Assembly (NCBI GenBank): GCA_015233405.1
Contig: JADFXT010000003.1
Location: 54,591-118,590, forward strand
Direction of reading: 5' to 3'
DNA: 64,000 bases
Source of the DNA: Candidatus Omnitrophota bacterium
Lineage (GTDB): Bacteria; Omnitrophota; Gorgyraeia; Zapsychrales; Zapsychraceae
The translations under genes were made by a program, and so were the position numbers. Positions 3 to 17,952 of the stretch are shown one piece after another. The notes beneath the pieces were generated by a model that was not told where the DNA came from, did not search any database, and saw nothing but the letters and a program-made list of their open reading frames with translations. Position 1 is the stretch's first letter. Each line of letters opens with the position of its first letter.

Positions 3-1577
3 TTACTTAACTTGTCTACCGAATCCCACGCGAACACTATTTTGATTTTGTTGCGTATTATACATCCCCTGTGTTGCCACAGGTTGTGTATTCTGTGCCA
101 TGGGTCCGTCGATAATCTGATGGCAATTGGAACAAACACCGCGGTATCCATGTGTCATGCCAGCATTGCTTGAAATCGGCGGTGCCTGTACGGGCATTTG
201 AGCAGCGACAGGCGCCATGGGATTATTTCCTTGATTATAAAAATTCGGCTGATTATTTTGATTTTGGTAATACGCACCACCGCGCGCCATGATCTGTCCG
301 CAATTAGGACAACGCGGAAATTCATTTGCCCCTTGTTGCGCGTACATTCTCCAATTGCAATTCGGGCAGAGGAAGAATCCCGTCGATTCCGGACCATTCC
401 AAAAATTAGGTTGGTTCGTCATTTGGTTCATCTGCGGTCTAACCTGGTTCATATTGGCAGCCTGTTGCCCGCCTTCTGACCACCAATTGATTGGTCCTTT
501 GTTCGACATATCTTTAGCCATAGGCGAGCCACAGTTCGGGCACGTCGGATAATTATTGCCTTGCATTGTTCCTTTCATTCGCCAATTGCAATTCGGGCAA
601 ACAAAAACTTGCTGTCCCCATCCAAAAGCAACTTGAGTGCCAGTATTCATTTGTCCCATGGTATCCGGGTCCGGCATAGCCACACCTTGCACCATAGCGC
701 CTTGCATATATCCCGGCATTGGGCAAGCTTGACCCATTTGATTCATTCCCATTCCACCTTGCATAAAGCCCTGTCGAGTAGGTAAAGGACACGTCGGAAC
801 TGCCATCGTATTCATGTCCGGCATACCAAATCCAGCGCCCTGCGCGGTTTGCTGCATCATACGAATACGGCAATTGGGACAAACAGGACAAACACCTGCG
901 GAATTCTGACCGGCCATAATATACTTACAACGAGGACAAAAATAATTGCAAAAAACCCCGCCTTGTCCGGGGCCAAAACCTGCCTGCATATTAGCTTGTG
1001 CATTGACAGGAGAAACCGGTCCGGCCATAACAGGTTGAGAAATCACATTCGTGGACGTCGGGGCTTGAGGCATCCGTGCTTGCCGATAAAGACTGATGGC
1101 CTTTCTTGAAGTTCCTGCATATCCGCCAAACACACGTATGCCAAACTGCATCAGGATATTATAACTTTGCTGGTCGATATTGTTGACGATGACAGCCTCT
1201 TCTCCTTTGCCAGCAACTAAATACGCGATCTGGGGATTGGGCACCGTGCCACGATAAGGATTTTGAACCGCCTGAACAAGTTTCTGCGATAACGGATTCA
1301 CGACCAGAAAATATTTGGACTCTTGCAAAGACGGCGACACTTTAGCGCTCAAAGACGGGCCATCGGCCGCGATAACGATTTTTCCACAGGCCGGATTTCC
1401 CGCATTCTGGTTCTGAGTCTCAGGAGCAAACAGCGCGTAAACTCCAACGATCAAGACAAGAAATATCGAACCAAAAATAAAATAAACATTCAGGTCGACA
1501 TCTTTGAGCCGCGCCAGGAGATCCTCAAACGGATTATCTTGGGCTTTAGTGTTTTTTGCTTTCAAATTTTTTTCCAT
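3..1577 (-). CDS. membrane-anchored NifX/NifB-C-like domain protein with zinc-ribbon array, M/Q/N/G/P-rich low-complexity region and C-terminal magnetochrome-type CXXCH
   Basis: 524-codon ORF, TAA at 3-5. N-terminal TM helix (VYFIFGSIFLVLIVGVYALF). Residues ~65-165 resemble the dinitrogenase FeMo-cofactor-binding (NifX/NifB-C) fold (KIVIAADG..YFLVVNP..AVIVNNIDQQSYNILMQFGIRVF). Three CPxC..CPxC ribbons (FCPRCKYIM..CPVCPNCRIRM; VCPNCNWRM..CPNCGSPM; LCPNCNWRM..CPNCGQIM). C-terminal HGYRGVCSNCHQI. Confidence 0.8.
   Translation of the reverse strand: MEKNLKAKNTKAQDNPFEDLLARLKDVDLNVYFIFGSIFLVLIVGVYALFAPETQNQNAGNPACGKIVIAADGPSLSAKVSPSLQESKYFLVVNPLSQKLVQAVQNPYRGTVPNPQIAYLVAGKGEEAVIVNNIDQQSYNILMQFGIRVFGGYAGTSRKAISLYRQARMPQAPTSTNVISQPVMAGPVSPVNAQANMQAGFGPGQGGVFCNYFCPRCKYIMAGQNSAGVCPVCPNCRIRMMQQTAQGAGFGMPDMNTMAVPTCPLPTRQGFMQGGMGMNQMGQACPMPGYMQGAMVQGVAMPDPDTMGQMNTGTQVAFGWGQQVFVCPNCNWRMKGTMQGNNYPTCPNCGSPMAKDMSNKGPINWWSEGGQQAANMNQVRPQMNQMTNQPNFWNGPESTGFFLCPNCNWRMYAQQGANEFPRCPNCGQIMARGGAYYQNQNNQPNFYNQGNNPMAPVAAQMPVQAPPISSNAGMTHGYRGVCSNCHQIIDGPMAQNTQPVATQGMYNTQQNQNSVRVGFGRQVK
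111..152 (-). other. magnetochrome-type heme-c binding motif (H-G-Y-R-G-V-C-S-N-C-H-Q-I-I)
   Basis: CXXCH preceded by H-x-Y-R-G, the same pattern as the two motifs in the 13838-14680 product. It matches the magnetochrome signature known from MamP/MamE/MamT. Confidence 0.7.
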
Positions 1578-7313: not shown

Positions 7314-7347
7314 GATAGATTATTGAACGAGATTAGAGAACTCGTAA

Positions 7348-8130: not shown

Positions 8131-8468
8131 TATGTTCCTAAATCTTTCATTGCCATTTCCCGATGTTCATAAATCGGGATCAATTTGTGGATCTTTGTGA
8201 TTTCAAACAGCCCCTTTACGTCTTTATTAACATTACAGATCGCCAGTTTTCCGCCGGATTTCTTAAGCATTTGCATCATTTCTATGAGTGTCGCAAGCCC
8301 GGCGCTGCAGACAAACGTCACCTTTTCAAAATCAACCAGGACTTTGGTCGAGCCTTCTTTCAACATTTTTAGAAATGATTCGCGTAGCGCGATGGAGTTG
8401 TCCACGCTCAATTCCCCATCCATGGTCACTACAGTAATGCCGCTTATTTTCTCAACCAGTATTTTCAT
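8130..8468 (-). CDS. STAS-domain anti-sigma-factor antagonist (SpoIIAA/RsbV-like)
   Basis: 112 aa, typical STAS layout (LVDFEKVTFVCSAGLATLIEM) with a candidate phospho-Ser. Confidence 0.85.
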   Translation of the reverse strand: MKILVEKISGITVVTMDGELSVDNSIALRESFLKMLKEGSTKVLVDFEKVTFVCSAGLATLIEMMQMLKKSGGKLAICNVNKDVKGLFEITKIHKLIPIYEHREMAMKDLGT

Positions 8469-8480
8469 TTTCAGCCTCCC

Positions 8481-8882
8481 TTATTGCTTCAAAAATTTAG
8501 TCATCTTTATTGTCCGGCCCTCATTGGCGAACTCTAATTTATCCATGACATTTTTTATAAGAAATATCCCTCTGCCGCTTAACTTTTCTAAATTTTCCGT
8601 TTTGACAGGGTCAGGAATCTTTTGATAATCAAAGCCTTTGCCTTGATCCGTCACTTGAATGGTTAGTTGATTCTCGTCAGATGTAATCTCAACCTGCACC
8701 GATAAACGCGGGTCCATTTTATTGCCATGTTTAACGGCATTGACAATCGCTTCATATAACACGAGCTTAATATTAAAAATAGTGCTTTGGTCCAAAGCCA
8801 ATGGAGACAGTTTCTCCAGAATTGAAGAAACAAATCCGTTTATAGGCGCAACTTGCGAAGGTATGGTCTCAAATATATGCAT
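8481..8882 (-). CDS. anti-sigma regulatory factor / Ser-Thr kinase (RsbW/SpoIIAB-like, HATPase_c)
   Basis: 133 aa with EAIVNAVKHGN (N-box), DQGKGFD (G1) and GRGIFLIKNVMD (G2). Confidence 0.85.
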   Translation of the reverse strand: MHIFETIPSQVAPINGFVSSILEKLSPLALDQSTIFNIKLVLYEAIVNAVKHGNKMDPRLSVQVEITSDENQLTIQVTDQGKGFDYQKIPDPVKTENLEKLSGRGIFLIKNVMDKLEFANEGRTIKMTKFLKQ

Positions 8883-8943
8883 AAAGGTTGCAGTAAATTA
8901 TCAAAAAAACTCCGACGCGTCAAATAAAAATATCCCTTACCCT

Positions 8944-10887
8944 TTAAATAATCTTAACAACAATAAAAGTGATATCATCCGACTGCTTATGTTGCGGCTC
9001 AAATTTCCGGACATCTTTTTCAATCGAGGACAACAATCCTCTTGCGGGGAAATTCCGGTCTTTTTCAATTGTAGAAATCAGCCGTTCCTTGCCATACATT
9101 TGGCCCTTGGCGTTTCTCGCTTCTGTGATCCCGTCGGTATAAAAAACAAAAATGTCGCCGGAAGAAAATGCGATCTGTCCGCCGGAGTAAGTGCTTTCGA
9201 GCATCCCTAAGGGGTATCCGTCTTCCACATCCAAAGCTTTAGCGGAAGCGCCCTTGGGCAAATATAAAACCGGCAGATGCCCGCCGTTGGCGTACGTCAT
9301 GATCTTTTTATCCATGTCGAATATGGAATAATAAAGCGTGACAAATAATCCTGTCGGAGAGTCCTGGGTTAATTTTAAGTTTAAATTGTGAAGCGCCTCA
9401 TGCGGCTTGGTTTCGGACAAAGCGAAAAATTTAAACGCGCCCGAAACCGTGGTCATAAAAAGGCTGGCCGGCATGCCTTTTCCGGAAACGTCGCCGATCA
9501 TGACGCCAAGCCGTTTAGGGCTGAATTCATAAAAATCATACAAATCCCCGCCGACCTCACGGGCCGTATACATGATGGCGGCGATATCAAGCCCGGCGGT
9601 CATAGGAAGCGTTTTAGGAAGGAAACTCTCCTGGATCTTCTTGGCAATTTTCATTTCATTCTCGACGAGGATTTTCTTCTTCCACTCGCGGATGGAGATC
9701 ATCAGCGTTGAAAGCAAATAAAGCGCCACCAACGCAAAGAACGGATAAAACATATCCACCCAAATTCCGAATAAAATGAACAATAAAATCGCCAAGACGC
9801 TATAGGAAAAAATCGTGCCGGCTAATATCAAAAAACTCTTAAATGGCTTGGTGGCAAATACGCCCCAGACGATCAACGCGCCTAATAAAAACAAAATGAC
9901 CTGGTTGGTTTGCTTTGAGGCGCGGACGATAAATTGTTTATTCAATATAGAATTAATAATGTCGCTGTGCACCGCAAGCGCCGGATAAAGCGCGGAGAAC
10001 GGGTTAGGATGCAGGTCTGCCGTGCCGGCGGCGGTGAGTCCTACAATGCAAATTTTGTCCTTAAAAACATTTAAATCCAGCGTCGGCTTTTCTCCTTTTT
10101 TTAAAGAAACATAAGACTGCAAAATATCCACAAAAGAATAATGTTTATAATATCTGCCCCAATCGCCGGCATAATTCACGATCACATTTGAATTTTCATC
10201 CACCGGGATCCGCATCTTGCGGCCCAATTGAATATAGCGACCAGGATAAAGCTTTAGATCTTTAGCAGATAACCCCAAATAAGCAGAGATTAAACGAAGC
10301 GAAAGATATGGATGAAGCGTGTTTCCATATTCAACCAAAAGCGGAACGCGCCGATATTTTCCGTCGGGGTCTGGGATGACATTAATATGCCCGATACCTG
10401 CAGCCACTTGCCTGAAATTTTCTAACGTTTGGGCCGTATAACCCTTTGCCTCGATGACCTTTTGTTTTGGCGTATTGTCCAGATCAAAAACATATGGCAA
10501 ATAAACATTACCCGTGGTCTTGATCGCCTGTTCCAATTCTGGGTCGCCATTGCCTTTCTCCGAGAAGAAAATATCCATCAAAACGGCTTTGGCGCCATAT
10601 TCAGACAAAGCCTTGATCAAAACAGCATGATACCCTCTGTCAAAAGGGAATCGCCCTAATTTGGCGATAGAATCTTCACCAATTTCAACAATTACAACTT
10701 TATCAGATGTGAATACGAACGGACGGAGATGAAAACGAAAGTCTAATGCGCCAAGCTCACTATTTTCAAAAATGCGAGCATGGGAACCGCACAAAAGAAT
10801 GGCAGCAAAGGCGAGAAAGATAAGGACCAACAAAACGTTTTGAAACGCAACGGCCAGCAAATCAAGAATTTTTTTCAGATTGACCAT
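8944..10887 (-). CDS. CHASE2 sensor domain / PP2C (SpoIIE-type) serine phosphatase
   Basis: 647 aa. N-terminal TM plus CHASE2-like region (VVIVEIGEDSIAKLGRFPFDRGYHAVLIKAL..DIFFSE). Three to four TM helices. C-terminal SpoIIE/PP2C region (IQESFLP, GGDLYDF, GDVSGKGMPASLFM, YTDGITEA). Confidence 0.9.
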   Translation of the reverse strand: MVNLKKILDLLAVAFQNVLLVLIFLAFAAILLCGSHARIFENSELGALDFRFHLRPFVFTSDKVVIVEIGEDSIAKLGRFPFDRGYHAVLIKALSEYGAKAVLMDIFFSEKGNGDPELEQAIKTTGNVYLPYVFDLDNTPKQKVIEAKGYTAQTLENFRQVAAGIGHINVIPDPDGKYRRVPLLVEYGNTLHPYLSLRLISAYLGLSAKDLKLYPGRYIQLGRKMRIPVDENSNVIVNYAGDWGRYYKHYSFVDILQSYVSLKKGEKPTLDLNVFKDKICIVGLTAAGTADLHPNPFSALYPALAVHSDIINSILNKQFIVRASKQTNQVILFLLGALIVWGVFATKPFKSFLILAGTIFSYSVLAILLFILFGIWVDMFYPFFALVALYLLSTLMISIREWKKKILVENEMKIAKKIQESFLPKTLPMTAGLDIAAIMYTAREVGGDLYDFYEFSPKRLGVMIGDVSGKGMPASLFMTTVSGAFKFFALSETKPHEALHNLNLKLTQDSPTGLFVTLYYSIFDMDKKIMTYANGGHLPVLYLPKGASAKALDVEDGYPLGMLESTYSGGQIAFSSGDIFVFYTDGITEARNAKGQMYGKERLISTIEKDRNFPARGLLSSIEKDVRKFEPQHKQSDDITFIVVKII

Positions 10888-10954
10888 GATAAAAAATTAG
10901 TCCTTTTCTTGTTTTGCCAATTATAACATTTCTTTTATAAAAGAACAGAATATT

Positions 10955-11890
10955 CTACAGGCGCAAATCCTTCTCTCTGGAATAAACCGAACATTTCTTG
11001 CATTTATTGATCTTCTCTTCAGCCGTACCCTGCATTTGTCCATCGCACCAGGTGTAATCCACATCCCAGCATTTGACCCCATGATTGGGAAACGCAGGGC
11101 ATTGAACCTGACGCTCCGCCGGACAATTTAAGATGTCCCAGCAAGAAGACTTTAAAAGATTTTTACAATAATCCTGTAAATCATTCGTCCGCTTTTTCAT
11201 TCCGTTTATCAAGCGGTCCCAGTTTTCTTTATTTTCCAACTCCTTAGAGAATGGCCTTTTCTCGATACCTTCCAGAAAACTCTCGACACTCCAGCAATAA
11301 TTTTTTAAGGTGTCTAAAAGACGATTTATTCGTAAGGTCACCTCTTCATCCGGCATTGCATCTCTCCAGACCTCAAATCCCCCCAGCACCCTTCCTCGTT
11401 TATCAATGAGCGGACCAGCTGTAACAATGATCGTATGCTCGCGATCGAATTTGTCCTGAACCTTGACCCTTTTACCAATGACGGACTTCTGCGTCGTCAT
11501 AGCTTGTTTAATAGCACAATTTTTCTCGCACAAATCGCTATTAAACACTCTCATACACTTGACTTTTCCTATGGCATCATTTAATTTCAAGCCTGTAAAA
11601 TCAAGGCAAGCCGGATTCATATATTGGATCTTCATGTTTTTATCCACGACGAAGAACGGATAACTTGAGGCCCGCAAGATGCTAGCAGCGAAAGAAGACA
11701 TCTCTTCAAACTCATCAAAGACTTTTGCCTTGGAAGATAAAAATTCCAGAAAATTATTATGCTCCCCACTTTTAGGCTCAGCTTTCTTTTGAGAAAACCG
11801 CGTCTTTTCAGAATCTTTTTTATCGACGGGATCCGGAACATTTTTCAAATCTTCAATGACTTGTACCATCCGATAGAAATTCATTGCCAT
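10955..11890 (-). CDS. PAS-domain protein with C-terminal Cys-rich module containing two CW dipeptides
   Basis: PAS-like core (FFVVDKNMKIQYMNPACLDFTG...TAGPLIDKRGRVLGGFEVWRD). C-terminus CWDILNCPAERQVQCPAFPNHGVKCWDVDYTWCDG...CKKCSVY. Confidence 0.75.
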   Translation of the reverse strand: MAMNFYRMVQVIEDLKNVPDPVDKKDSEKTRFSQKKAEPKSGEHNNFLEFLSSKAKVFDEFEEMSSFAASILRASSYPFFVVDKNMKIQYMNPACLDFTGLKLNDAIGKVKCMRVFNSDLCEKNCAIKQAMTTQKSVIGKRVKVQDKFDREHTIIVTAGPLIDKRGRVLGGFEVWRDAMPDEEVTLRINRLLDTLKNYCWSVESFLEGIEKRPFSKELENKENWDRLINGMKKRTNDLQDYCKNLLKSSCWDILNCPAERQVQCPAFPNHGVKCWDVDYTWCDGQMQGTAEEKINKCKKCSVYSREKDLRL

Positions 11891-12042: not shown

Positions 12043-12948
12043 TTACGCTGGCTCAAAAAAGAAATCAACTTCACCGATGGACGGAAGATTACGAATAACC
12101 GACTTCTTCATATCGTCCATGGCCACACAGACTTCCTGAAGAGTACCCGTCTTGGGACAGCGAAGACTGATGCCGACCCAAAATTTCTTGCCCACTCTCT
12201 TAAACTTGATACTCCCTGGTCGATATTTAGGATAAGCGGACAGGATCATCTTTTCTATGCGAAGCGCGAACCCCGGTTCAGGAACCTGGTCCAGGATGTT
12301 TCGCACATTAGAAGCCCAATGACTCAAAGAATCTTTAACAATGACCACACCGACGATGAGAGCTGCTAACCGGTCGCAGACGGCAAAATCAGCCCCCATC
12401 TGAGATAAAATGATCCCTAAAATCACGGCACTTGAAGAAAGGACATCTGCTCCGGCGTGACAACCGTTTGCAATCAGTCCAGAGCTATCTAACCTTTTGC
12501 CGGCGCAAAAATTATACCGTTGGATCATATAGGTCAGAAAGACCGACGCTACGGCAACGGGGAGCGCCAACACAATATCCGGTTGGACAAAATCACGTCT
12601 AAGAATGGCCAGAATGCTCGAAAGCGTAATAGAAACGCCAAACCCGATCAAGATACTAAACGCGATAAGCGCGACGATAAATTCAAGTTTCGCATAACCA
12701 TACGGAAATCGAACATCATTCGGCCGACTGGAAAATGACAAGCTCACCATAATGAGAATGCTCGTCACAACACAAGCGATGGATTGAATTCCGTCGGCGA
12801 TCATCCCGGAACTGTTGGCGAACGTTCCACCGGCAAGTTTTATTACGACCAAAACAGCATTGCCGATGACTGTCCAGACGAGGATTTTCTTTGAACACGC
12901 CCAACAGCCTTCTGTCGTCATACAGGAATTTGCATTTTTTGAAATCAT
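12043..12948 (-). CDS. cation diffusion facilitator transporter, MamB-like (N-terminal CxxC)
   Basis: 301 aa with CDF topology. N-terminal CWAC parallels the CxxC of MamB. TM2 ADGIQSIACV. TM5 NGCHAGADV (HxxxD retained). PYGYAKLEF loop. C-terminal cytoplasmic domain. Confidence 0.8.
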   Translation of the reverse strand: MISKNANSCMTTEGCWACSKKILVWTVIGNAVLVVIKLAGGTFANSSGMIADGIQSIACVVTSILIMVSLSFSSRPNDVRFPYGYAKLEFIVALIAFSILIGFGVSITLSSILAILRRDFVQPDIVLALPVAVASVFLTYMIQRYNFCAGKRLDSSGLIANGCHAGADVLSSSAVILGIILSQMGADFAVCDRLAALIVGVVIVKDSLSHWASNVRNILDQVPEPGFALRIEKMILSAYPKYRPGSIKFKRVGKKFWVGISLRCPKTGTLQEVCVAMDDMKKSVIRNLPSIGEVDFFFEPA

Positions 12949-13835
12949 ATTTTTTCTTCCAGCCTAATACCAATGAACACTTCATGGGGGCTTAAAAATT
13001 TTACCTTTACCGCTCTTTTGATGTTCTCTGCGATAGCAAAAACGTCCACCATGGGAATGTCTTTTGCCGTCGACAGATCAGCGATAATTTCGTAGATGTG
13101 GCCGATCTTGTTAACGCGTAACGCCTTTAACGACGCTTCACCTATCTGTGCTTTACGGATACAACTTTCGACCTCGGAAACAGTTTTCTTATCGCACGAG
13201 GCATCCATCAGCCCTATAAAGGCTTTATATAAAAATAAAACACTGTAGGCGATGATAAAGAACGCCGCAAAAATAGCGCATCCATAATCAACAATGTAAG
13301 ACCCCATCCTCGATATTACGACGGTAAGGATGGTCAAGACCGAAAGCAGGAAATCTGTATCCAGAATAAAGATAATATCCTTCGATTCGTCTTCTTCCTG
13401 AATATTGGTTATCTCGGCCTTGATTCTTACCATAAACACTAAACTGATCGTAGCAGCGATCGCCGCAACCCACGCAGCCAGAAATTCTGGCGGATAAAGC
13501 GTGTGAAAGAAAATCATATGGCCTAAAGAAAAAAGAAGGGCGCTGGTGCTTAAGGCGATAACTGACGATATCGCCAAAAGGATCATGAATTCAAGCTTGC
13601 CCCGGTTAAAATATGGCGATAGCCGTCGGGAAGAATGCGTTATACCGATGCGCATCAAGGTGGCAATGGCTATCAAGATACCAAAAATCGCGAAGATGCC
13701 GGATACCAATAAACATTTTGAGCCCGTGATGACGCCTAAAACAGTCTTAAACAAAAAAGATGTTATAAAAAAATATAATAAGGCATAGGTGATCCGCTCT
13801 TTCTTTTCTTTAAGGAAATCTGGTTTCTTTTTCAT
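12945..13835 (-). CDS. cation diffusion facilitator paralogue with degenerate transport-site residues (MamM-like partner?)
   Basis: CDF-like layout (NRGKLEFMILLA loop, C-terminal domain). TM2 reads LVSGIFAIFG, lacking the D/H pair. The ATG at 13835 is preferred over the track GTG at 13859 because it lies 2 nt after the upstream stop. ATGA-type 4-nt overlap with the downstream CDF gene. Confidence 0.75.
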   Translation of the reverse strand: MKKKPDFLKEKKERITYALLYFFITSFLFKTVLGVITGSKCLLVSGIFAIFGILIAIATLMRIGITHSSRRLSPYFNRGKLEFMILLAISSVIALSTSALLFSLGHMIFFHTLYPPEFLAAWVAAIAATISLVFMVRIKAEITNIQEEDESKDIIFILDTDFLLSVLTILTVVISRMGSYIVDYGCAIFAAFFIIAYSVLFLYKAFIGLMDASCDKKTVSEVESCIRKAQIGEASLKALRVNKIGHIYEIIADLSTAKDIPMVDVFAIAENIKRAVKVKFLSPHEVFIGIRLEEKI

Positions 13836-13837
13836 CG

Positions 13838-14680
13838 TTATCCCTGGATTACATGGCACTTAGAACAAATCCCTCGATATTCATGCGGCGCCTGCGCATT
13901 TGCCGGTATCGCTGGGACATTAGGGGTCATAATCACATGACAATTTTCACAGACGCCGCGAAATTCATGCATCATAATTGCATCACGCAAAATGGCCGGC
14001 GCCTTTGTTTGTCCCGGGATTGGCTTCGTTAAAGCAACCGTCCGCGCTCCAGGGAATACACATCCATTTCTGCCCGTATACGCAATCTGCTGGCCAGCAC
14101 CGCCCGTCGTGGCAGGAGGAAAACATTGGGTAACCGTCGGACATGTCATACAACCCGGCGGAATATACGCCGCTTGTTGACCGGCCTGCGCCTGCCACTG
14201 ATTAAAAATTTGCGTTCCCGTTGGACAATTGGGTTGAAAGGCTATTTGTTGTCCACCACCCGTTGCCGGAGGAAAACATTGGGCAACATTGGGACACACC
14301 GCACAATTCGGTGGAACATACGCAGCCTGTTGTGCAGCGCCTGTTCCTTGAGGAAAACATTGTGTGACCGTTGGGCACGTCATACAACCCGGCGGAATAT
14401 ACGCCACTTGCTGCGGCATGGACTGCCACTGATTAAAGTCTTGAGCAGCGGTTGGATAATTCTGCTGAAACGCGACCTGCTGAGAGCCTCCCGTGGCAAT
14501 AATCCCTTGCTGGGCAGGATCTTGAACGGGCACCGGTTTGGGCCGCATATTAAAAAGCGCAAAGCAGAAAAATGACGTGAGCCCGACGACAGTAAGCCCT
14601 ATCATCCATAAACTTTTGGCATTGATATTCGCGCAGGAATCGTCTGCGAAAAATATCTCTTCTTTTTTATCGTTCTTCAT
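13838..14680 (-). CDS. TM-anchored double-magnetochrome (2x CXXCH) protein with Q-rich CxxC..C repeat region
   Basis: 280 aa. N-terminal TM (LWMIGLTVVGLTSFFCFALF). Repeats of PPGCMTCPTVTQCFP type. C-terminal MHEFRGVCENCHVI and PHEYRGICSKCHVI. Confidence 0.85.
   Translation of the reverse strand: MKNDKKEEIFFADDSCANINAKSLWMIGLTVVGLTSFFCFALFNMRPKPVPVQDPAQQGIIATGGSQQVAFQQNYPTAAQDFNQWQSMPQQVAYIPPGCMTCPTVTQCFPQGTGAAQQAAYVPPNCAVCPNVAQCFPPATGGGQQIAFQPNCPTGTQIFNQWQAQAGQQAAYIPPGCMTCPTVTQCFPPATTGGAGQQIAYTGRNGCVFPGARTVALTKPIPGQTKAPAILRDAIMMHEFRGVCENCHVIMTPNVPAIPANAQAPHEYRGICSKCHVIQG
13841..13972 (-). other. two tandem magnetochrome-type heme-c motifs
   Basis: H-E-F-R-G-V-C-E-N-C-H and P-H-E-Y-R-G-I-C-S-K-C-H, about 28 residues apart. 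Confidence 0.75.
14078..14482 (-). repeat. in-frame ~234-nt (78-aa) super-repeat inside the double-CXXCH gene
   Basis: QQVAFQQNYPTAAQDFNQWQ..QQVAYIPPGCMTCPTVTQCFP versus QQIAFQPNCPTGTQIFNQWQ..QQAAYIPPGCMTCPTVTQCFP. DNA blocks near 14117-14180 and 14351-14414 are nearly identical. Confidence 0.8.
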
Positions 14681-14774
14681 GAAAAACCCCTTTCATTTTA
14701 ATCCCTCCGTCCCCCTTATACTGATGGGGGAGGTTATATATTGTCACAATCCAAGGAACACAATTGTTTTGCCT

Positions 14775-14897
14775 GTCATCCTCAACTTCCTCGATGTTGT
14801 ATCTAGAAATGATTGGGGATCCATTAAATGCTTTTAGGTCCTAAGCCCCTACAGGAGGACACCTTCTGGATCCCCGCCTAAAGATTGCGGGGATGAC
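14775..14897. repeat. palindromic MITE/REP-like element, subfamily A (123 bp, left arm degenerate)
   Basis: Starts gtcatcctc, contains the core ggggatccattaaatgcttttaggtcc, and ends ggatccccgcctaaagattgcggggatgac. The right arm is nearly identical to that of 36178-36283. Confidence 0.8.
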
Positions 14898-14989
14898 AGA
14901 AAAAGATCAAGGATAAGACCTATAATTTTCATCATTTCCACAAAAACGGGAATCCACTCTTTAAAAAATAAAAATCATATAACCAGACA

Positions 14990-15436
14990 CTATATTCCGC
15001 CGGGACGGGTTCCTACCGTCGTATAAATAATGACCGATTCTCCTTGCCGGTCGATCGTAATTTTAACACGCTCATTTGTATTGGATGTCTGGATAAGCCG
15101 CTCCAGTTGTTCCGGGCTGGTTACACTGGTCCCGTTCCACCTTCGGATGACATCCCCTTCATGAATTTTGGACGCTTGCGCCGGCGAGCCGACAAAAACT
15201 CTCGAAACCAATAAGCCGTTCGATGACTGAATATCAAATTGCTTTTTGATATCCGTCGTAAGCTCAACCGTTTCCATGCCCAGCCAAAGCCGCGAATCCG
15301 CAGGCTTGAGCAGCATGGTCGGCAACTTTATAAAAAGCACAATCACCGTAATGGCCGTTAAAAGGATCATAAAAAGGACCGCGTTGACCGCGTCATCATT
15401 TTTTCTCTTAATGGCCACCTTTGTTTTTATCATCAT
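14990..15436 (-). CDS. TM-anchored single-PDZ-domain protein
   Basis: 148 aa. N-terminal TM (AVLFMILLTAITVIVLFI) followed by PDZ (LWLGMETVELTTDIKKQFDIQSSNGLLVSRVFVGSPAQASKIHEGDVIRRWNG). 4-nt overlap with the NapH-like gene. Confidence 0.8.
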   Translation of the reverse strand: MMIKTKVAIKRKNDDAVNAVLFMILLTAITVIVLFIKLPTMLLKPADSRLWLGMETVELTTDIKKQFDIQSSNGLLVSRVFVGSPAQASKIHEGDVIRRWNGTSVTSPEQLERLIQTSNTNERVKITIDRQGESVIIYTTVGTRPGGI

Positions 15437-16281
15437 TGCCCCTGATTATTCGTTGTCGCTGTTGCCCCAAGGCCAACCTTGACATTTTCACATTTCAAAC
15501 ACTTAAAACATCTCACACACGTCGACGCGCCAGGGTCATCACTAATGTTGATATCCACCGGACAGACCTCTCTACATTTTTGGCAATCTTTGCAATCGCG
15601 CGGGTCCACTTTTAGTTGAAGAATGCTGTGTCTATTAAAGAATCCAAATATCGCACCGAGCGGGCAGGCTAGACGGCAAAATGGCCTTTTGGCGATAATG
15701 AAAAGCGCGATAAAAGAAAATGCGATAAGGATCTTGATGATAAATAATAACCCTAAAGTCGAAAGAGACACAGCCGGCTCGCCGTAGACCGGAATGATCG
15801 GATTCCAAACGACCCAAGGAATCGCGGCTTGAAGCGTCCCCATAGGGCACACCTTCGAGAACCAAGTCTCTTGCGTGATTAACGGGAACAAAATAACGAG
15901 AAAAATCAGGATCAGATATCGTAAGGCTGATAACTTTTGTGGAAGACGGATCTTTACACTCTTTATTTTATAAAAAAGATCCTGGATAAGCCCAAACGGG
16001 CACAACCAACCGCATGCCAAAGAACCCACCATAATTCCGGTGGTCGCAAGATATGCCGTCAAAAGATACGGGAACTTACGGATGGTCATAAAATGTTGAA
16101 ATGTTCCAATAGGGCAGGAAAGAAATGCCGACGGACAACTATGGCAATTCAACCCCGGGATGCACACACTTTTTAGCGAGCCCTGATAAACCTGTTTGGT
16201 CCTTAAAAAACCGAAATACGCATTTGTTAAGACGAGCGAACACCACTGTGCTGTCGTGCGTATACTCTGTAGCAAATCCAT
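15433..16281 (-). CDS. NapH/MauN/NosH-like integral-membrane polyferredoxin (putative quinol-linked electron transfer)
   Basis: 282 aa. CX3CP motifs (CGWLCP, CRLACP) plus CHSCPSAFLSCP between TM helices. C-terminal 2x[4Fe-4S]-type CKDCQKCREVCP and CVRCFKCLKC. Confidence 0.8.
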   Translation of the reverse strand: MDLLQSIRTTAQWCSLVLTNAYFGFLRTKQVYQGSLKSVCIPGLNCHSCPSAFLSCPIGTFQHFMTIRKFPYLLTAYLATTGIMVGSLACGWLCPFGLIQDLFYKIKSVKIRLPQKLSALRYLILIFLVILFPLITQETWFSKVCPMGTLQAAIPWVVWNPIIPVYGEPAVSLSTLGLLFIIKILIAFSFIALFIIAKRPFCRLACPLGAIFGFFNRHSILQLKVDPRDCKDCQKCREVCPVDINISDDPGASTCVRCFKCLKCENVKVGLGATATTNNQGQ

Positions 16282-16284
16282 CCG

Positions 16285-16419
16285 TTACTCCAATCCAATA
16301 CAGGCCATGCACATGGTGGCCCCGTTGTTTTGTGTCTCGAGAGGTTCGTTGTTATTGTCTCCGATAAGGAAAAAAATAAACGCCAAAAAGAAGACGACAA
16401 TCACGACTATCTTTTTCAT
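16285..16419 (-). CDS. possible 44-aa exported/membrane peptide with C-terminal CMAC (below ORF-track cutoff)
   Basis: Hand translation: MKKIVVIVVFFLAFIFFLIGDNNNEPLETQNNGATMCMACIGLE. The stop lies 4 nt before the NapH-like ATG. No homology claim is made. Confidence 0.3.
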   Translation of the reverse strand: MKKIVVIVVFFLAFIFFLIGDNNNEPLETQNNGATMCMACIGLE

Positions 16420-16439: not shown

Positions 16440-16790
16440 TTACTGGCTTTCAATCCATGTCATATATGTTCGACACCGCGGGCATTGTGGAAATCCGCTA
16501 TATCCGCAGGCCGGACAAACAAAGGCGCCCCGATATCCGTTCCAATACATGGAAACCTGGCACGTCGGGCATAAAGGAACTCCTTTTGCACCGCACTTGG
16601 GACAAACACTGAACACATTATGTTCAATCACCTTCATGACGACATTATTGGAAACAAGGGAACGCGCCTGGACTGTTTTAAATTTCGAAACCGAATACAT
16701 GGCATACCCGGACAAAAAAATGGCAAAAGCCACCACCATGATAAGTAGGCGATTTCTGTCCTGATCATTTAAGATAATACTGTCTTCCAT
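16440..16790 (-). CDS. TM-anchored double zinc-ribbon protein
   Basis: 116 aa. TM (LLIMVVAFAIFLSGYAMY) followed by CPKCGAKGVPLCPTCQVSMYW and CPACGYSGFPQCPRCRTYMTW. The ribbon style matches that of the 3-1577 product. Confidence 0.65.
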   Translation of the reverse strand: MEDSIILNDQDRNRLLIMVVAFAIFLSGYAMYSVSKFKTVQARSLVSNNVVMKVIEHNVFSVCPKCGAKGVPLCPTCQVSMYWNGYRGAFVCPACGYSGFPQCPRCRTYMTWIESQ

Positions 16791-16792
16791 GC

Positions 16793-17497
16793 TTACAACA
16801 CCTTCACTTTGGGTTTTACAGCGGCACTATTAAGCGGCGCAGTCACGGCGGTTACCTCATGCATAACGCCACCACACTTAGGGCATTGCGTGGGAACAAT
16901 AGCTCCGGCACTTTTTTCCGAAACGCGGTAACTGCAATCAAAGCACATATAATATTTTCCCTGGACTATCCGCCCGACGTTGGCTTGGGCATCAAAGGAG
17001 TTACAGGCCACCGGCGTTTTACTTCCGGTAATGCCGAAATGCGACGGAACGTTTTGTTCGGTAAGTTTGGTCAGGCCGTCGGGAAAATCATTGAGCGCCT
17101 GCCACACGGTCCCTTTTAAATCCGTATAAACTTCAATACGCGCCTGGCTAAAAACTCTAAAAGGTTCAAATCCAACATTGTTGCCGAGAACAGCGTCGAC
17201 GTTTAAACCCGCGATCATTTGAGCGGAACGTAACCCAGCGGCATGCTGGGCGTCCATAAATTTATTCGGTACGGCCTTATACGTTCTTTTGGCACGGTCA
17301 CAGATAATATAAAACGGCGCCCTGCCGAACAGGTAGGAAACCGGGCTTGAAATGTCTTTCCCCGTCGATGCGATCGCGATGATCACGGCCTTTTTACCGG
17401 TCAAAACCAATGGATTATTCTTTTCATAAAGCGCGCGCCCAATGACAAGGCCGACCGCCACAATCAAAACGATGAGGAATATCGTTTCTTTTTTCAT
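16793..17497 (-). CDS. membrane-anchored NifX/NifB-C-like domain protein with C-terminal zinc ribbon
   Basis: 234 aa. N-terminal TM. Good NifX-family pattern (AVIIAIASTGKDISSPVSYLFGRAPFYIICD...GLNVDAVLGNNVGFEPFRVFSQARIEVY). C-terminal CFDCSYRV...CPKCGGVM. Confidence 0.8.
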   Translation of the reverse strand: MKKETIFLIVLIVAVGLVIGRALYEKNNPLVLTGKKAVIIAIASTGKDISSPVSYLFGRAPFYIICDRAKRTYKAVPNKFMDAQHAAGLRSAQMIAGLNVDAVLGNNVGFEPFRVFSQARIEVYTDLKGTVWQALNDFPDGLTKLTEQNVPSHFGITGSKTPVACNSFDAQANVGRIVQGKYYMCFDCSYRVSEKSAGAIVPTQCPKCGGVMHEVTAVTAPLNSAAVKPKVKVL

Positions 17498-17952
17498 TGG
17501 GGATTACTCTTCTGCTTCGTTTTATTTTTCGTAGAAACAGCTTCGCCATCCTGGTCAAAATGGATTTTCTTGTAATACTCGCAGGATAAACAAGAAGTCT
17601 TACAGAAGATCTTTTGGTGGGCGACGTGTTCACGGATCGTGTAACACTTTTTGGTATCGGACAGAAAGACGACACAGAGTTTGCAGTTATGAACTCCATT
17701 ATTCTTCACCGGTTGATGAAATTCCCAACAGCGTAAAAAATCTGCATTTTCTATAAACTTCTCCGACTTAATTGCGTTGAGGCCGATTTTATACGTTTTA
17801 ATAAAAGCAACGAGGTCCGCACGGTGAATGCGCCGGTGGCCGCCCGGGGTCTTGGTGCTTTTTAAAATCCCTTTTTTCGTCCAATTGATGATAGAGAATC
17901 TTGTTACGTTGCAAAGCTTGGAAATCTCTACGGTTGAATAATATTCCTTCAT
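17494..17952 (-). CDS. excisionase/MerR-superfamily HTH DNA-binding protein with Cys-rich C-terminal module
   Basis: YSTVEISKLCNVTRFSIINWTKKGILKSTKTPGGHRRIHRADLV (HTH_17-like) followed by CWEF..CKLC..C..CKTSCLSCEYY. AGGAGG RBS. 4-nt overlap with the downstream NifX-like gene. Confidence 0.8.
   Translation of the reverse strand: MKEYYSTVEISKLCNVTRFSIINWTKKGILKSTKTPGGHRRIHRADLVAFIKTYKIGLNAIKSEKFIENADFLRCWEFHQPVKNNGVHNCKLCVVFLSDTKKCYTIREHVAHQKIFCKTSCLSCEYYKKIHFDQDGEAVSTKNKTKQKSNPQ

What the first reader, a model, noticed from the sequence alone, without database searches (positions are those of the whole stretch)
16440..17497. Second NifX-like/zinc-ribbon set: domains that are fused at 3-1577 occur here as adjacent genes
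Seen: 16793-17497 encodes TM plus a well-conserved NifX-like domain (LFGRAPFYIICD...AVLGNNVGFEPF) plus one CxxC..CPxC ribbon. Two nt downstream starts a TM protein with two further ribbons (CPKC..CPTC, CPAC..CPRC). Together they recapitulate the domain order of the 524-aa protein at the other end of the island, minus the low-complexity region and heme.
Inference: a paralogous module, by gene fission/fusion or duplication, suggesting that the NifX-like plus ribbon combination is functionally important for this system rather than a chance fusion.
Basis: partly seen in the sequence, partly recalled or inferred. Interest (0 to 1): 0.65.

Follow-up and report, generated by a model that had tools for sequence, protein, structure and literature searches.

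The report
Conserved NifX-ribbon gene pair in magnetosome cluster
Two small, tightly coupled membrane-protein genes sit in the magnetosome gene cluster of an uncultured Omnitrophota bacterium: one encodes a NifX-like metal-cluster-binding domain plus a cysteine ribbon, the other two short cysteine ribbons. They form a conserved unit next to the redox gene mad6 and are an old, diverged relative, not a recent copy or simple split, of the larger heme-bearing NifX protein at the other end of the cluster.

Summary
On the minus strand, 16793-17497 encodes a 234-aa protein with a TM helix, a canonical NifX-like domain (PF02579, 54 bits) and one Cys4 ribbon. Two nt downstream, 16440-16790 encodes a 116-aa protein with a TM helix and two short Cys4 ribbons. 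The domain order matches the 524-aa protein at 3-1577.

- The pair is conserved and always split: it occurs in 22 related loci plus one distant locus.
- It sits in a fixed operon: HTH, NifX-ribbon, double ribbon, an unlisted 44-aa TM/CxxC micro-ORF, Mad6, PDZ, MamP, MamM, MamB.
- NifX+ribbon units also recur in Desulfobacterota magnetosome clusters, so the combination is not a chance fusion.
- Profile comparison shows collinear homology between the 234-aa and 524-aa proteins (200 columns, 97%), and between a 116-aa ribbon and a 524-aa ribbon (97%).

However, the two NifX domains are not each other's nearest relatives: they give the lowest profile score of all pairings and are sister groups in 0 of 200 bootstraps. 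Both families coexist in different conserved operons. Ribbon number in the 524 family varies from 0 to 6. The 116-aa protein has its own TM helix. They are therefore ancient paralogous modules, and the direction (fission or fusion) is unresolved.

The likely role is metal-cluster or iron and redox handling with Mad6/MamP. This is inferred, not shown.

The parts
16793..17497 (-). Gene for the 234-aa protein (family 'F234'; NCBI tag HQL24_02915): TM anchor + canonical NifX-like domain + conserved linker + one Cys4 ribbon
   Evidence: ORF. Pfam PF02579 at 54.2 bits. 59 homologues, 223-255 aa when complete. AlphaFold model pLDDT 80.8.
17417..17491 (-). N-terminal hydrophobic helix of the 234-aa protein (aa 3-27): signal anchor or uncleaved signal peptide
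   Evidence: Helix H3-27 at pLDDT >90. Mean hydropathy 2.16. Flanking charges are ambiguous, net +2.3 on the N side versus +1.4 on the C side.
17048..17392 (-). NifX-like (ORP/MTH1175/TM1290-type) alpha/beta domain, aa 36-150. It keeps the FGRAP, D67, N78, HAAG and GFEP motifs.
   Evidence: PDB sequence hits: 1RDU 4e-13, 1EO1 5e-13, 2WFB 2.5e-8. Foldseek best match ORP 2WFB, TM 0.89, rmsd 1.3 A. Motif comparison.
16958..17047 (-). Conserved linker aa 151-180 (NVPSHFGITGSK..AC.SF..AN..IVQG), with invariant H153 and C165
   Evidence: Invariant columns in 54 sequences. Low model confidence, pLDDT 48-52. The motif NVP(S/T)H(F/Y)G is shared with the distant P0143/P0156.
16853..16957 (-). Cys4 ribbon of the 234-aa protein (aa 181-215; C185, C188, C205, C208)
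   Evidence: All four Cys are invariant. Beta-hairpins at pLDDT 78-87. Consensus QGKfyiCFdCnYRiSe..agg..P..CPkCGg.mHEV.
16440..16790 (-). Gene for the 116-aa protein (family 'F116'; HQL24_02910): TM helix + tandem pair of short Cys4 ribbons
   Evidence: ORF. 29 homologue clusters of 109-118 aa, all 'hypothetical', none fused. Starts 2 nt after the upstream stop.
16695..16748 (-). TM helix of the 116-aa protein (about aa 15-32)
   Evidence: Model helix 9-43. Family charge bias: N flank net -0.35, C flank net +3.1. This predicts N-out/C-in, which would put the ribbons in the cytoplasm.
16449..16616 (-). Double short-loop ribbon domain (aa 59-114): two ~25-aa units, VCPxCGxKGxPxCPxCxVxMYWNG and FVCPACGxxGFPxCPRCxxxMTWIE
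   Evidence: Alignments. Consensus. Model pLDDT 84-89 across the domain; best structural match is the two-zinc Cys-rich region of PriA (prob 0.99, E 0.028, not significant).
16285..16419 (-). Conserved 44-aa micro-ORF (TM helix + QNNGATMCMACIGLE tail) between the ribbon gene and mad6; belongs to the same conserved unit
   Evidence: Sequence and RBS-like GGAAGGA. Present in all 11 genome loci and all 11 metagenome loci that extend that far. A distant copy is in L016.
15433..16281 (-). Mad6-like NapH-type membrane iron-sulfur protein, immediately downstream
   Evidence: Pfam Fer4_5 5.7e-16 plus Fer4_7. Always follows the pair. A mad6 mutant in D. magneticus RS-1 makes few particles (PMC4287615).
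17494..17952 (-). HTH_17/MerR-like regulator with a Cys-rich C-terminal half; its stop overlaps the ATG of the 234-aa gene by 4 nt
   Evidence: Pfam HTH_17 1.6e-9. Coordinates. Conserved upstream of the pair in 9 of 12 genome loci.
12043..15436 (-). Rest of the conserved operon: PDZ protein (14990-15436), MamP-like magnetochrome protein (13838-14680), MamM-like (12945-13859) and MamB-like CDF transporters (12043-12948)
   Evidence: Pfam results. The same order is seen.
3..1577 (-). 524-aa comparison protein (family 'F524'): TM + diverged NifX + 3 ribbons + low-complexity stretches + 1 magnetochrome. It lies in a different conserved operon (MamE-PDZ-F524).
   Evidence: The MamE-PDZ-F524 context is conserved in L030.

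Best explanation
What it is. 16440-17497 holds a conserved, translationally coupled two-gene unit of the Omnitrophota magnetosome gene cluster. F234 is a membrane-anchored protein with a canonical ORP/MTH1175-type NifX-like domain and one Cys4 ribbon. F116 is a membrane-anchored double short Cys4 ribbon protein.

Context. The pair is part of a fixed operon: HTH regulator, F234, F116, a 44-aa TM/CxxC micro-protein, Mad6 (NapH-like Fe-S membrane protein), PDZ, MamP, MamM, MamB.

Evolution. The pair and the 524-aa NifX-ribbon-magnetochrome protein descend from an old TM-NifX-ribbon(s) building block. That block is reused widely in magnetosome clusters of deep-branching magnetotactic bacteria. The two are ancient, functionally separated paralogues. 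They are not sister domains, not a recent duplicate, and not a simple fission product.

Likely mechanism (inferred). The three small Cys-rich membrane proteins assemble with Mad6 at the magnetosome or cell membrane. The NifX-like domain holds an iron-containing inorganic cluster or polymer, as NifX/NafY, the MrpORP Di-Nase domain and IssA do. The Cys4 ribbons bind Zn or Fe, and either dock the partners or relay electrons. The unit would then help feed iron in the right redox state to MamP/MamM/MamB-dependent magnetite nucleation early in biomineralisation.

Shown: gene structure, domains, conservation, synteny, homology relationships. Inferred: complex formation, ligand, metal identity, membrane side, physiological role.
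For: Structure and domains.

Tight coupling: the spacer is 2 nt here, and in other loci ranges from a 4-nt overlap to a 3-nt spacer. The promoter/terminator scan of the region found no more sites than in shuffled sequence.

Conservation of order: F234-F116-micro-Mad6-PDZ-MamP-MamM-MamB is seen in 11 genome loci (Omnitrophota plus one Planctomycetota MAG) and 11 metagenome loci. A remote version is in L016. Homologues are never fused.

Homology to F524: hhalign 97.2% over 200 collinear columns and 97.0% for ribbon to ribbon.

Not sister domains. F524 has lost the FGR/GAG/GP.A motifs that F234 keeps.

Module reuse in other proteins:
- Desulfamplus PDZ-(NifX-ribbon)n giants located after MamB.
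- The F524 ortholog P0123, which has a canonical NifX domain.
- CDF-NifX fusions.
- Soluble NifX-ribbon proteins P0210/P0219.

Functional precedent from the literature:
- FmpA/FmpB of D. magneticus RS-1 carry NifX-type domains and are enriched on early magnetosomes. Alleles that remove those domains give fewer, smaller, misshapen crystals (PMC12748827, PMC4287615).
- A mad6 mutant is weakly magnetic (PMC4287615).
- The MrpORP Di-Nase domain binds Fe-S (PMC6345978).
- The IssA IPR003731 domain binds Fe and S and scaffolds thioferrate nanoparticles (PMC5524996).
Against: - No experiment exists for any Omnitrophota protein.
- The ligand of ORP/MTH1175-type domains is unknown in most cases. ORP itself binds a Mo-Cu-S cluster, not iron.
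- Membrane sides are unresolved and may differ. The charge bias puts the F116 ribbons in the cytoplasm. The F524 ribbons must share a side with a heme-c domain, that is, outside the cytoplasm. F234 is ambiguous.
- The ribbon folds give no functional clue. The best match, the PriA Zn region, has E 0.028.
- The deep branching order of NifX domains is unresolved, with bootstraps below 50%. A single common TM-NifX-ribbon ancestor is therefore plausible but not proven. Independent assembly from the same domain pool would give similar patterns.
- The tree is a simple NJ tree on about 115 saturated columns. F524 is a long branch.
Confidence: 0.55

Rival explanations
1. First reader's version. The pair is a split (or the 524-aa protein a fused) copy of one and the same module. 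The two NifX domains would then be direct paralogues created by duplication plus gene fission or fusion within this lineage.
For: - Same domain order, with collinear BLASTP alignment 5-220 versus 37-248 at 26% identity, E 1e-10, and hhalign over 200 columns.
- F116 unit 2 aligns with the third F524 ribbon at 50% identity, with a shared WNG lead-in.
- The 236-aa protein of L016 joins an F116-type double ribbon to a low-complexity stretch and a long ribbon. This resembles the C-terminal half of F524.
Against: - The NifX domains are the most distant pair among the groups compared: hhalign score 64.9, against 115-212 for F234 and 102-173 for F524 with the generic, giant, MCRshort and FmpB-like groups.
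- They group as sisters in 0 of 200 bootstraps.
- No F524 member appears in the top 150 hits.
- Each has closer relatives of its own: P0143/P0156 for F234 and P0122/P0123 for F524.
- Both families coexist in at least 10 contigs and in different operons.
- The pair is never found fused in about 60 plus 29 homologue clusters.
- F116 has its own TM helix and probably the opposite orientation.
- The F524 ribbon count varies from 0 to 6.
Confidence: 0.2
2. Independent domain shuffling. F234, F116 and F524 were assembled separately from a common pool of mobile modules: a NifX-like domain, Cys4 ribbon repeats and TM anchors. The similar order would then be convergence, favoured by function.
For: - NifX-like domains occur in many architectures in magnetosome clusters: with PDZ, magnetochrome, CDF transporters, and alone.
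- Ribbons occur without NifX, for example the PDZ+ribbon 242-aa protein in L014.
- Ribbon copy number is highly variable.
- PMC6345978 reports that the NTPase plus Di-Nase association arose several times independently.
Against: - The NifX-linker-ribbon unit aligns end to end even with soluble proteins (P0210, residues 40-215, 31% identity). The NifX-ribbon cassette is therefore inherited as a unit rather than re-invented.
- Collinear profile alignments include the TM helix and the ribbon.
Confidence: 0.2
3. The pair is not a biomineralisation factor. Instead it is a generic accessory or maturation module for the NapH-like Mad6 protein, for example Fe-S cluster insertion, or a regulatory zinc-finger pair that merely hitch-hikes in the cluster.
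For: - It is always adjacent to Mad6 together with the micro-protein.
- NifX-like Di-Nase domains take part in Fe-S protein maturation in the ORP system (PMC6345978).
- An HTH regulator is translationally coupled upstream.
Against: - All homologues recovered come from magnetosome-cluster contexts or magnetotactic-lineage MAGs. None was seen next to ordinary napH/ccoG-type genes.
- Removal of the NifX domain in FmpA/FmpB affects the crystals directly (PMC12748827).
- A Mad6-maturation role would still be a magnetosome function.
Confidence: 0.15

Closest known systems
FmpB (DMR_41100, 'MamP-like') and FmpA (DMR_41090) of Desulfovibrio magneticus RS-1
   Same: These are magnetosome-cluster-encoded, membrane- or periplasm-targeted proteins that carry NifX/NifB-type ('dinitrogenase Fe-Mo') domains. 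They are enriched on early magnetosomes, and alleles lacking the domain give fewer, smaller crystals (PMC4287615, PMC12748827). They sit next to MamB, as the Desulfamplus NifX-ribbon giants do.
   Different: FmpA/B combine NifX with PDZ, protease or magnetochrome domains. The cited papers do not describe Cys4 ribbons in them. F234 has no PDZ or heme domain and comes with a separate double-ribbon partner. An FmpB-like protein (P0250: 3 MCR + PDZ + 2 NifX) is not the nearest NifX relative of F234 (hhalign 87.7).
ORP (orange protein, D. gigas, 2WFB), TM1290 (1RDU), MTH1175 (1EO1): small stand-alone NifX-like proteins (COG1433 / IPR003731)
   Same: They share the fold and hallmark motifs. Sequence E-values are 4e-13 to 2.5e-8. 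The model superposes on ORP with TM 0.89 and rmsd 1.3 A. Identity to stand-alone representatives is 35-41%.
   Different: Those proteins are soluble, of about 110-125 aa, with no TM anchor and no ribbon. They are not in magnetosome clusters. ORP binds a Mo-Cu-S cluster, and the ligands of the others are unknown.
IssA of Pyrococcus furiosus (iron-sulfur storage protein)
   Same: It has an IPR003731 (NifX-like, MTH1175-type) globular domain followed by a non-globular tail. The domain binds Fe and S and scaffolds an inorganic iron polymer, giving 20-300 nm electron-dense particles (PMC5524996). It is a precedent for a NifX-like domain working in iron mineral handling. F524 likewise has low-complexity tails.
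   Different: IssA is cytoplasmic and soluble, has a cationic Gly/Arg/Trp tail and one Cys, and makes thioferrate rather than magnetite.
NifX / NafY / NifB C-terminal domain (nitrogenase cofactor carriers)
   Same: Same Pfam family, PF02579. They act as carriers of complex Fe-S(-Mo) clusters.
   Different: No nif genes lie nearby. The structural match to NifX itself is weak (9IAN_F, E 0.065, TM 0.33/0.51). The domain is closer to the non-nif ORP/MTH1175 group.
The 524-aa magnetochrome-NifX-ribbon family of the same cluster (F524; NCBI 'magnetochrome domain-containing protein')
   Same: TM, NifX, linker and ribbon are collinear. There is ribbon-to-ribbon similarity with F116. Both are present in the same genomes.
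   Different: - It has a magnetochrome heme motif and low-complexity spacers.
- Its ribbon number is variable.
- Its NifX domain has lost the FGR/GAG/GP.A motifs.
- It lies in a different operon, MamE-PDZ-F524.
- It is not the nearest NifX relative.
PriA Cys-rich region and other two-zinc ribbon modules
   Same: The F116 C-terminal domain is predicted as a compact pair of interleaved CxxC knuckle sites. Its best structural matches are the PriA CRR (prob 0.99, 59-61 columns, rmsd 3.8-4.0 A).
   Different: The E-value is not significant (0.028). There is no helicase context, and F116 is membrane anchored. The resemblance is probably generic to small Cys4 metal-binding modules.

Membership tests
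Pfam PF02579 Nitro_FeMo-Co (NifX/NifB/NafY-like domain) | HMM score above the curated gathering threshold | tested here: met
   The 234-aa protein scores 54.2 bits against a cut-off of 26.3, E 1.9e-14. The 524-aa protein scores 26.1 bits, just below the cut-off, but 46.1 bits against a generic NifX HMM.
Pfam PF02579 Nitro_FeMo-Co (NifX/NifB/NafY-like domain) | Alpha/beta fold of ORP/MTH1175/TM1290 | tested here: met
   Model pLDDT is mostly 87-95 in residues 39-140 (one 10-residue block at 78). Foldseek gives 2WFB TM 0.89 / rmsd 1.3 A and 1RDU TM 0.82.
Pfam PF02579 Nitro_FeMo-Co (NifX/NifB/NafY-like domain) | Hallmark motifs (FGR-A, D, N, G-A-G loop, G-P/E-x-A/P) | tested here: met
   F234 keeps YLFGRAP..CD..PN..QHAAGL..NNvGFEP. 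F524 has lost FGR, the GAG loop and GP.A.
Bona fide NifX/NafY nitrogenase cofactor chaperones | nif gene neighbourhood and binding of FeMo-co / NifB-co | tested here: not met
   The neighbours are mam/mad genes and pst genes, with no nif genes. The match to NifX 9IAN_F is weak, E 0.065. Cofactor binding is not testable here.
Magnetosome NifX-domain proteins (FmpA/FmpB type) | Encoded inside a magnetosome gene cluster next to mamB/mamE/mamP-type genes | tested here: met
   The operon with Mad6, MamP, MamM and MamB is seen in the window and in 22 loci.
Magnetosome NifX-domain proteins (FmpA/FmpB type) | NifX domain joined to PDZ/protease or magnetochrome domains in one polypeptide | tested here: not met
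   F234 has only a TM helix, NifX and a ribbon. F524 does carry a magnetochrome domain. PDZ proteins are separate genes.
Magnetosome NifX-domain proteins (FmpA/FmpB type) | Orthology to DMR_41090 / DMR_41100 | not tested
The FmpB-like proxy P0250 is not the nearest relative.
Magnetosome NifX-domain proteins (FmpA/FmpB type) | Magnetosome localisation and a biomineralisation phenotype | not testable with these tools
   This is known only for RS-1 FmpA/FmpB (PMC12748827).
Cys4 zinc-ribbon / rubredoxin-like knuckle modules | Two CxxC knuckles on beta-hairpins, with conserved ligands | tested here: met
   F234 C185/188/205/208 are invariant. In F116, C63/66/74/92/95 are invariant and C77/103/106 are conserved in at least 90% of sequences. 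In two loci the fourth ligand of unit 1 is Asp.
Cys4 zinc-ribbon / rubredoxin-like knuckle modules | Identity of the bound metal (Zn versus Fe) | not testable with these tools
   Sequence and fold cannot distinguish the two. Metal analysis is needed.
   hhalign gives 97.2% over 200 columns for F234 and 97.0% over 24 columns for F116 unit 2 against ribbon 3.
   They give the lowest profile score among the larger groups, 64.9. They are sisters in 0 of 200 bootstraps. No F524 member is in the top 150 of 1530 hits.
   No F234-F116 fusion is found among homologues. L016 does have a 236-aa protein joining an F116-type double ribbon, a low-complexity stretch and a long ribbon.

The most novel reading that the evidence does not exclude
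F234, F116, the 44-aa CxxC micro-protein and Mad6 form a dedicated membrane complex. In it, an MTH1175/IssA-type NifX-like domain holds an inorganic iron (oxo/sulfido) cluster or polymer as the physical precursor handed to the growing magnetite crystal. The Cys4 sites and the Mad6 Fe-S clusters set its redox state. This would be a protein-scaffolded iron-delivery route for magnetosomes in deep-branching magnetotactic bacteria, mechanistically akin to IssA thioferrate storage. The NifX-ribbon cassette would be its conserved hallmark across Omnitrophota, Planctomycetota, Hydrogenedentota and Desulfobacterota.
Probability: 0.15. Interest if true: 0.8.

Novelty: new variant of a known kind. Interest (0 to 1): 0.5.

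Why it matters
NifX-type domains are the least understood recurrent domain in magnetosome proteins of deep-branching magnetotactic bacteria. The only functional data are the FmpA/FmpB alleles in D. magneticus RS-1.

This locus shows three things:
- A canonical NifX-like domain is kept, together with Cys4 ribbons and a previously unlisted micro-protein, in a fixed operon with Mad6, MamP, MamM and MamB.
- A second, diverged NifX-ribbon-heme protein is kept in a different operon of the same cluster.
- The NifX-ribbon cassette is shared with Desulfobacterota clusters.

This gives concrete, testable candidates for Mad6 partner subunits and for an iron or metal-cluster carrier step in magnetite formation. 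It also warns against reading the two NifX proteins as redundant copies. Because the organisms are uncultured, the immediate value lies in hypotheses and annotation, not in a demonstrated mechanism.

Tried and rejected
- Recent duplication or simple fission was rejected on NifX profile scores, the NJ bootstraps, and coexistence in separate operons.
- The '3 ribbons = 1+2' match as a conserved feature was rejected. The F524 family has 0-6 ribbons and 0-2 CxxCH motifs.
- A bona fide nitrogenase NifX role was rejected. There is no nif context, and the domain is closer to ORP/MTH1175 than to NifX.
- A literature search for a name for the Omnitrophota pair (mad/man/NifX terms) found nothing beyond the FmpA/FmpB NifX domains. 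Mad9 is a ferredoxin-type protein, not this one.
- The structure search of the 116-aa model gave only non-significant matches (PriA CRR, TFIIB, ZifS) and no functional lead.
- The promoter/terminator scan found no more sites than in shuffled sequence.
- Membrane topology from flanking charges is clear only for F116 and the micro-protein. It is ambiguous for F234 and F524.
- The exact 524-aa sequence was not returned by the homologue search (best hit 57% identity). This was not followed up.
Full report
**Source and setting.** The 234-aa product is identical to HQL24_02915, and the 116-aa product to HQL24_02910, of a 'Candidatus Omnitrophica bacterium' MAG on a 186-kb contig. This locus-tag series matches the magnetotactic-bacteria MAG survey PMC7602337. 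That attribution is my inference.

All genes of the island lie on the minus strand. Pfam scans give the following, in coordinate order:
- 3-1577: 524-aa protein with TM, NifX, three ribbons and a magnetochrome.
- 1608-2213: PDZ protein.
- 2218-3639: MamE-like trypsin-PDZ protease.
- 4384-5697: FAD oxidoreductase.
- 5684-6115: HTH_17 regulator.
- 6294-7313: ApbE.
- 7348-8130: TPR + ion-channel protein.
- 8130-10887: STAS / anti-sigma kinase / CHASE2-SpoIIE partner-switching set.
- 10955-11890: PAS protein.
- 12043-12948: MamB-like CDF transporter.
- 12945-13859: MamM-like CDF transporter.
- 13838-14680: MamP-like protein with two magnetochrome motifs.
- 14990-15436: PDZ protein.
- 15433-16281: Mad6-like NapH-type Fe-S protein.
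- 16440-16790 and 16793-17497: the two genes of the finding.
- 17494-17952: a second HTH_17 regulator.

pstBACS follows from 18120.

**Observation.** It is correct.
- The 234-aa protein (F234) has an N-terminal hydrophobic helix. Its Nitro_FeMo-Co domain scores 54.2 bits, twice the Pfam cut-off. It has one ribbon, C185-x2-C188-x16-C205-P-x-C208.
- The 116-aa gene (F116) starts 2 nt after the F234 stop, behind a GAAGGTG motif. It encodes a TM helix and two ribbons.
- The 524-aa protein (F524) has the same order of parts, plus low-complexity spacers and one CSNCH magnetochrome.

Two refinements apply. First, the F116 ribbons are a tandem pair of ~25-aa short-loop units of the form C-x2-C-x7-C-x2-C. 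The ribbons of F234 and F524 have 16 and 15 residues between knuckles. Second, the '1+2 = 3' equality is accidental. Among 64 F524 homologues my motif count gives 0-6 ribbons and 0-2 CxxCH motifs.

**Is the pair conserved?** Yes, strictly.
- A GTDB-species scan with the F234 alignment returned 12 loci: ten labelled Omnitrophota/Omnitrophica, one 'Planctomycetales' and one Planctomycetota.
- In all 11 loci that extend far enough, the order is (HTH)-F234-F116-Mad6-PDZ-MamP-MamM-MamB.
- A metagenome scan seeded with F116 gave 13 more loci. F234 precedes F116 in all 11 that have upstream sequence, and Mad6 follows wherever the sequence extends. Some of these may be the same populations as the MAGs.
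- The junction is always tight, from a 4-nt overlap to a 3-nt spacer. The two genes are never fused. Complete F234 homologues are 223-255 aa and F116 homologues are 109-118 aa.
- A remote version exists in L016. It has a 259-aa TM-NifX-ribbon protein (P0143, 39% identity in the NifX domain), then two F116-type proteins, then Mad6.

**An extra member.** The 158-nt 'gap' between F116 and Mad6 holds a 44-aa ORF (16285-16419), MKKIVVIVVFFLAFIFFLIGDNNNEPLETQNNGATMCMACIGLE, preceded by GGAAGGA. It is present in the same gap in all 11 genome loci that contain it (two seen only at their starts), in all 11 metagenome loci that extend that far, and in L016. Its tail ..(E/S)(I/T)Q(N/H)NGA(T/S)(M/L)C(M/L)(A/S)CIG.. 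is nearly invariant. The conserved unit is therefore three small Cys-bearing single-span proteins followed by Mad6.

**What the proteins look like.**
- The F234 model has pLDDT 80.8. It shows a helix at 3-27, a confident alpha/beta domain at 39-137, a low-confidence but sequence-invariant linker (NVPxHFGITGSK..AC.SF), and a beta-hairpin ribbon at 178-218.
- The domain superposes best on the orange protein ORP (2WFB, TM 0.89, rmsd 1.3 A). Next come TM1290, TM1816, MTH1175, Ta1041m and PH0822. True NifX (9IAN_F) is far weaker, at E 0.065. Sequence search agrees.
- F234 keeps the hallmark motifs of the stand-alone family: FGRAP, D, N, HAAG, GFEP.
- The F116 model has pLDDT 82.5. It is a long helix plus a compact hairpin domain. 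The nearest structures are the two-zinc Cys-rich region of PriA, but only at E 0.028.
- Flanking-charge statistics put the F116 ribbons on the cytoplasmic side (N flank net -0.35, C flank net +3.1) and the micro-protein tail outside. They are ambiguous for F234 and F524.
- The magnetochrome of F524 needs heme-c attachment outside the cytoplasm. This rests on established knowledge of cytochrome c maturation. Since F524 has no second TM helix, its NifX domain and ribbons should be lumenal or periplasmic.

**Are the two NifX domains close relatives?** No.
- A full scan of 1.84 billion representatives with the F234 NifX domain gave 1530 hits. After its own family come 941-1516-aa proteins, then hundreds of small stand-alone NifX-like proteins at 35-41% identity. 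No F524 member is in the best 150.
- The F234-family HMM scores the window's own F524 at only 20 bits, below the CDF-NifX fusions from other loci.
- Profile-profile scores show the same picture:

| Family | vs stand-alone | vs P0143 type | vs giants | vs P0122/3 type | vs FmpB-like | vs CDF-NifX | vs the other family |
|---|---|---|---|---|---|---|---|
| F234 | 212 | 164 | 159 | 115 | 88 | 65 | 65 (F524) |
| F524 | 134 | 54 | 156 | 173 | 102 | 42 | 65 (F234) |

- An NJ tree of 106 domains on 115 columns with 200 bootstraps gives F524 monophyly at 99.5% and F234 monophyly at 70%. F234 groups with P0143/P0156 and F524 with P0122/P0123. An F234+F524 clade appears in 0% of replicates. Deeper nodes are unresolved and distances are saturated, so this excludes a sister relationship but not a remote common origin.
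- F524 is a long branch. It has lost the FGR, GAG and GP.A motifs.
- Its ortholog P0123 keeps these motifs. P0123 shares the synteny MamE-PDZ-X-61aa-PDZ/MCR and the same magnetochrome lead-in (APPI..H..RGVCSNCH). Yet P0123 is still no closer to F234 (115) than to generic proteins (197).

**Are they nevertheless homologous modules?** Yes.
- BLASTP aligns F234 5-220 with F524 37-248 collinearly, at 26% identity and E 1e-10.
- Family profiles align over 200 columns through the TM helix, NifX, linker and first ribbon, at 97.2% and E 4e-11.
- F116 unit 2 aligns with the third F524 ribbon at 50% identity over 24 columns with an 8-residue loop deletion, at 97.0%. The preceding (Y/F)WNG..G.F.CP.C is shared.
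- In L016, a 236-aa protein links an F116-type double ribbon to a Q/G/N-rich stretch and a long ribbon. This resembles the C-terminal half of F524.
- The NifX-linker-ribbon unit also exists in soluble proteins. P0210 aligns with F234 40-215 at 31% identity.
- It is iterated 3-4 times after two PDZ domains in giants from Desulfamplus MAGs. One of these sits directly after MamB in a magnetosome cluster with MamI, MamQ-like, MamE, Mad23-like and MamK genes (L013).

My reading is that an old NifX-ribbon cassette was recruited and diversified in magnetosome clusters. F234(+F116) and F524 are two long-separated descendants. Each is fixed in its own operon: Mad6-MamP-MamMB for the former and MamI-MamE-PDZ for the latter. 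They coexist on at least ten contigs. This is shown by matching contig lengths, directly for JADFZM010000001.1, and by partial hits in L010 and L012. Whether the two-gene or the one-gene state is ancestral cannot be decided. The separate TM helix of F116 and its probable opposite orientation argue against a plain split.

**Function (inferred).**
- In D. magneticus RS-1, FmpA and FmpB carry the same type of domain. They are enriched on early-stage magnetosomes. Alleles predicted to remove the domain give fewer, smaller and misshapen crystals (PMC12748827; PMC4287615).
- A mad6 nonsense mutant makes few particles (PMC4287615).
- Outside nitrogen fixation, IPR003731 domains bind Fe-S clusters (MrpORP, PMC6345978).
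- In IssA, the domain scaffolds an inorganic iron-sulfur polymer into 20-300 nm particles, helped by a non-globular tail (PMC5524996).
- ORP binds a Mo-Cu-S cluster (cited within PMC6345978).

The most likely role of F234 is therefore as a membrane-tethered carrier or scaffold for an iron-containing cluster. It would work with F116, the micro-protein and Mad6, probably as one complex given the invariant coupling. It would act upstream of or beside the MamP iron oxidase and the MamM/MamB transporters. The ribbons may be structural Zn sites or rubredoxin-like Fe sites; the sequence cannot tell. Because F524 has lost the NifX motifs and gained a heme domain, it has probably taken on a different task. 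The two proteins are unlikely to be redundant.

**Comparison with the known.** The domain annotations are already public: NCBI labels F234 homologues 'NifB/NifX family molybdenum-iron cluster-binding protein' and F524 homologues 'magnetochrome domain-containing protein'. NifX domains in magnetosome proteins are published. My searches found no description of the following:
- the conserved split pair;
- its fixed association with Mad6 and the micro-ORF;
- the recurrence of the NifX-ribbon cassette across phyla;
- the non-sister relationship of the two NifX families.

I rate it a new variant of a known kind, of moderate interest.

**Limits.** The tree method is simple. The topology calls rest on charge counts. 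No coordinates were available to test whether C66, H85, H153 and C165 form a site. Neither IssA nor RS-1 Fmp sequences could be compared directly. All functional statements are by analogy.

Noticed in passing
window 16285-16419 (-): There is an unlisted 44-aa ORF (TM helix + ..QNNGATMCMACIGLE) between the double-ribbon gene and mad6. It has an RBS-like GGAAGGA and stops 3 nt before the Mad6 ATG. It is conserved with a near-invariant CxxC tail in every related locus that covers the gap, and in the distant L016.
   Followed up: yes
L006:4804-5958 and L012:15861-16994: This is a third NifX architecture in Omnitrophota magnetosome clusters: a CDF (Cation_efflux) transporter with a C-terminal Nitro_FeMo-Co domain where the usual cytoplasmic dimerisation domain would be. 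It is absent from this 64-kb window.
   Followed up: partly
L013:10001-13789 (Desulfamplus MAG JADGBF010000001.1); also P0124, P0126-P0129: These are giant 941-1516-aa proteins with TM + 2 PDZ + 3-4 NifX domains interspersed with 24-aa Cys4 ribbons. The one looked up (P0131, L013) is encoded directly after MamB in a Desulfobacterota magnetosome cluster. They are the best-scoring non-family hits (summed over several NifX domains) to the F234 NifX domain.
   Followed up: partly
window 17494-17952 (-) and 5684-6115 (-): Two HTH_17/MerR-like regulators lie inside the island. The first has a Cys-rich C-terminal half (C..C..C....C..C..C) and overlaps the F234 start by 4 nt. It is conserved upstream of the pair in most loci. 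It may be a metal- or redox-sensing regulator of the operon.
   Followed up: no
window 8130-11890 (-): A partner-switching set (STAS, HATPase_c_2 anti-sigma-type kinase, CHASE2-SpoIIE phosphatase) and a PAS protein are embedded in the magnetosome island. The PAS gene directly follows MamB in most related loci.
   Followed up: no
window 4384-7313 (-); L030:5262-7455: An FAD oxidoreductase (ETF-QO/FixC-like) and an ApbE flavin transferase sit in the island. The HTH-FAD oxidoreductase(-Fer4) arrangement recurs upstream of MamI-MamE-PDZ-F524 in L030. There, heme biosynthesis and cytochrome c assembly genes follow the F524 operon.
   Followed up: no
window 7348-8130 (-): This is a 260-aa protein combining an N-terminal TPR/SNAP-like segment with an Ion_trans_2 potassium-channel-type pore domain. 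It is conserved in L006 (48% identity). A TPR-channel fusion inside a magnetosome cluster is unusual.
   Followed up: no
L002:10696-11052 and L010:10603-11043: In two F116 orthologues, the fourth ligand of the first ribbon is Asp instead of Cys (CPIDRV / CPTDQA). The first site therefore tolerates Cys3Asp coordination.
   Followed up: no
L016:810-1520 and 1533-1904: The distant locus has two F116-type genes. One (236 aa) extends into a Q/G/N/A-rich low-complexity stretch and a long C-x2-C-x16-C-x2-C ribbon, resembling the C-terminal half of the 524-aa family.
   Followed up: partly
L014:5049-5603 and 6970-7698: The cluster holding the F524 ortholog P0123 also has a separate 184-aa TM-NifX protein after MamI, and a 242-aa TM-PDZ protein ending in a Cys4 ribbon. 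This is further evidence that NifX domains and ribbons are shuffled among magnetosome proteins.
   Followed up: no
window 3-1577 (-): The exact 524-aa sequence was not returned by the homologue search, where the best hit had 57% identity. The neighbouring F234 and F116 products were found at 100% identity. The gene may be annotated differently or not called in the public record.
   Followed up: no
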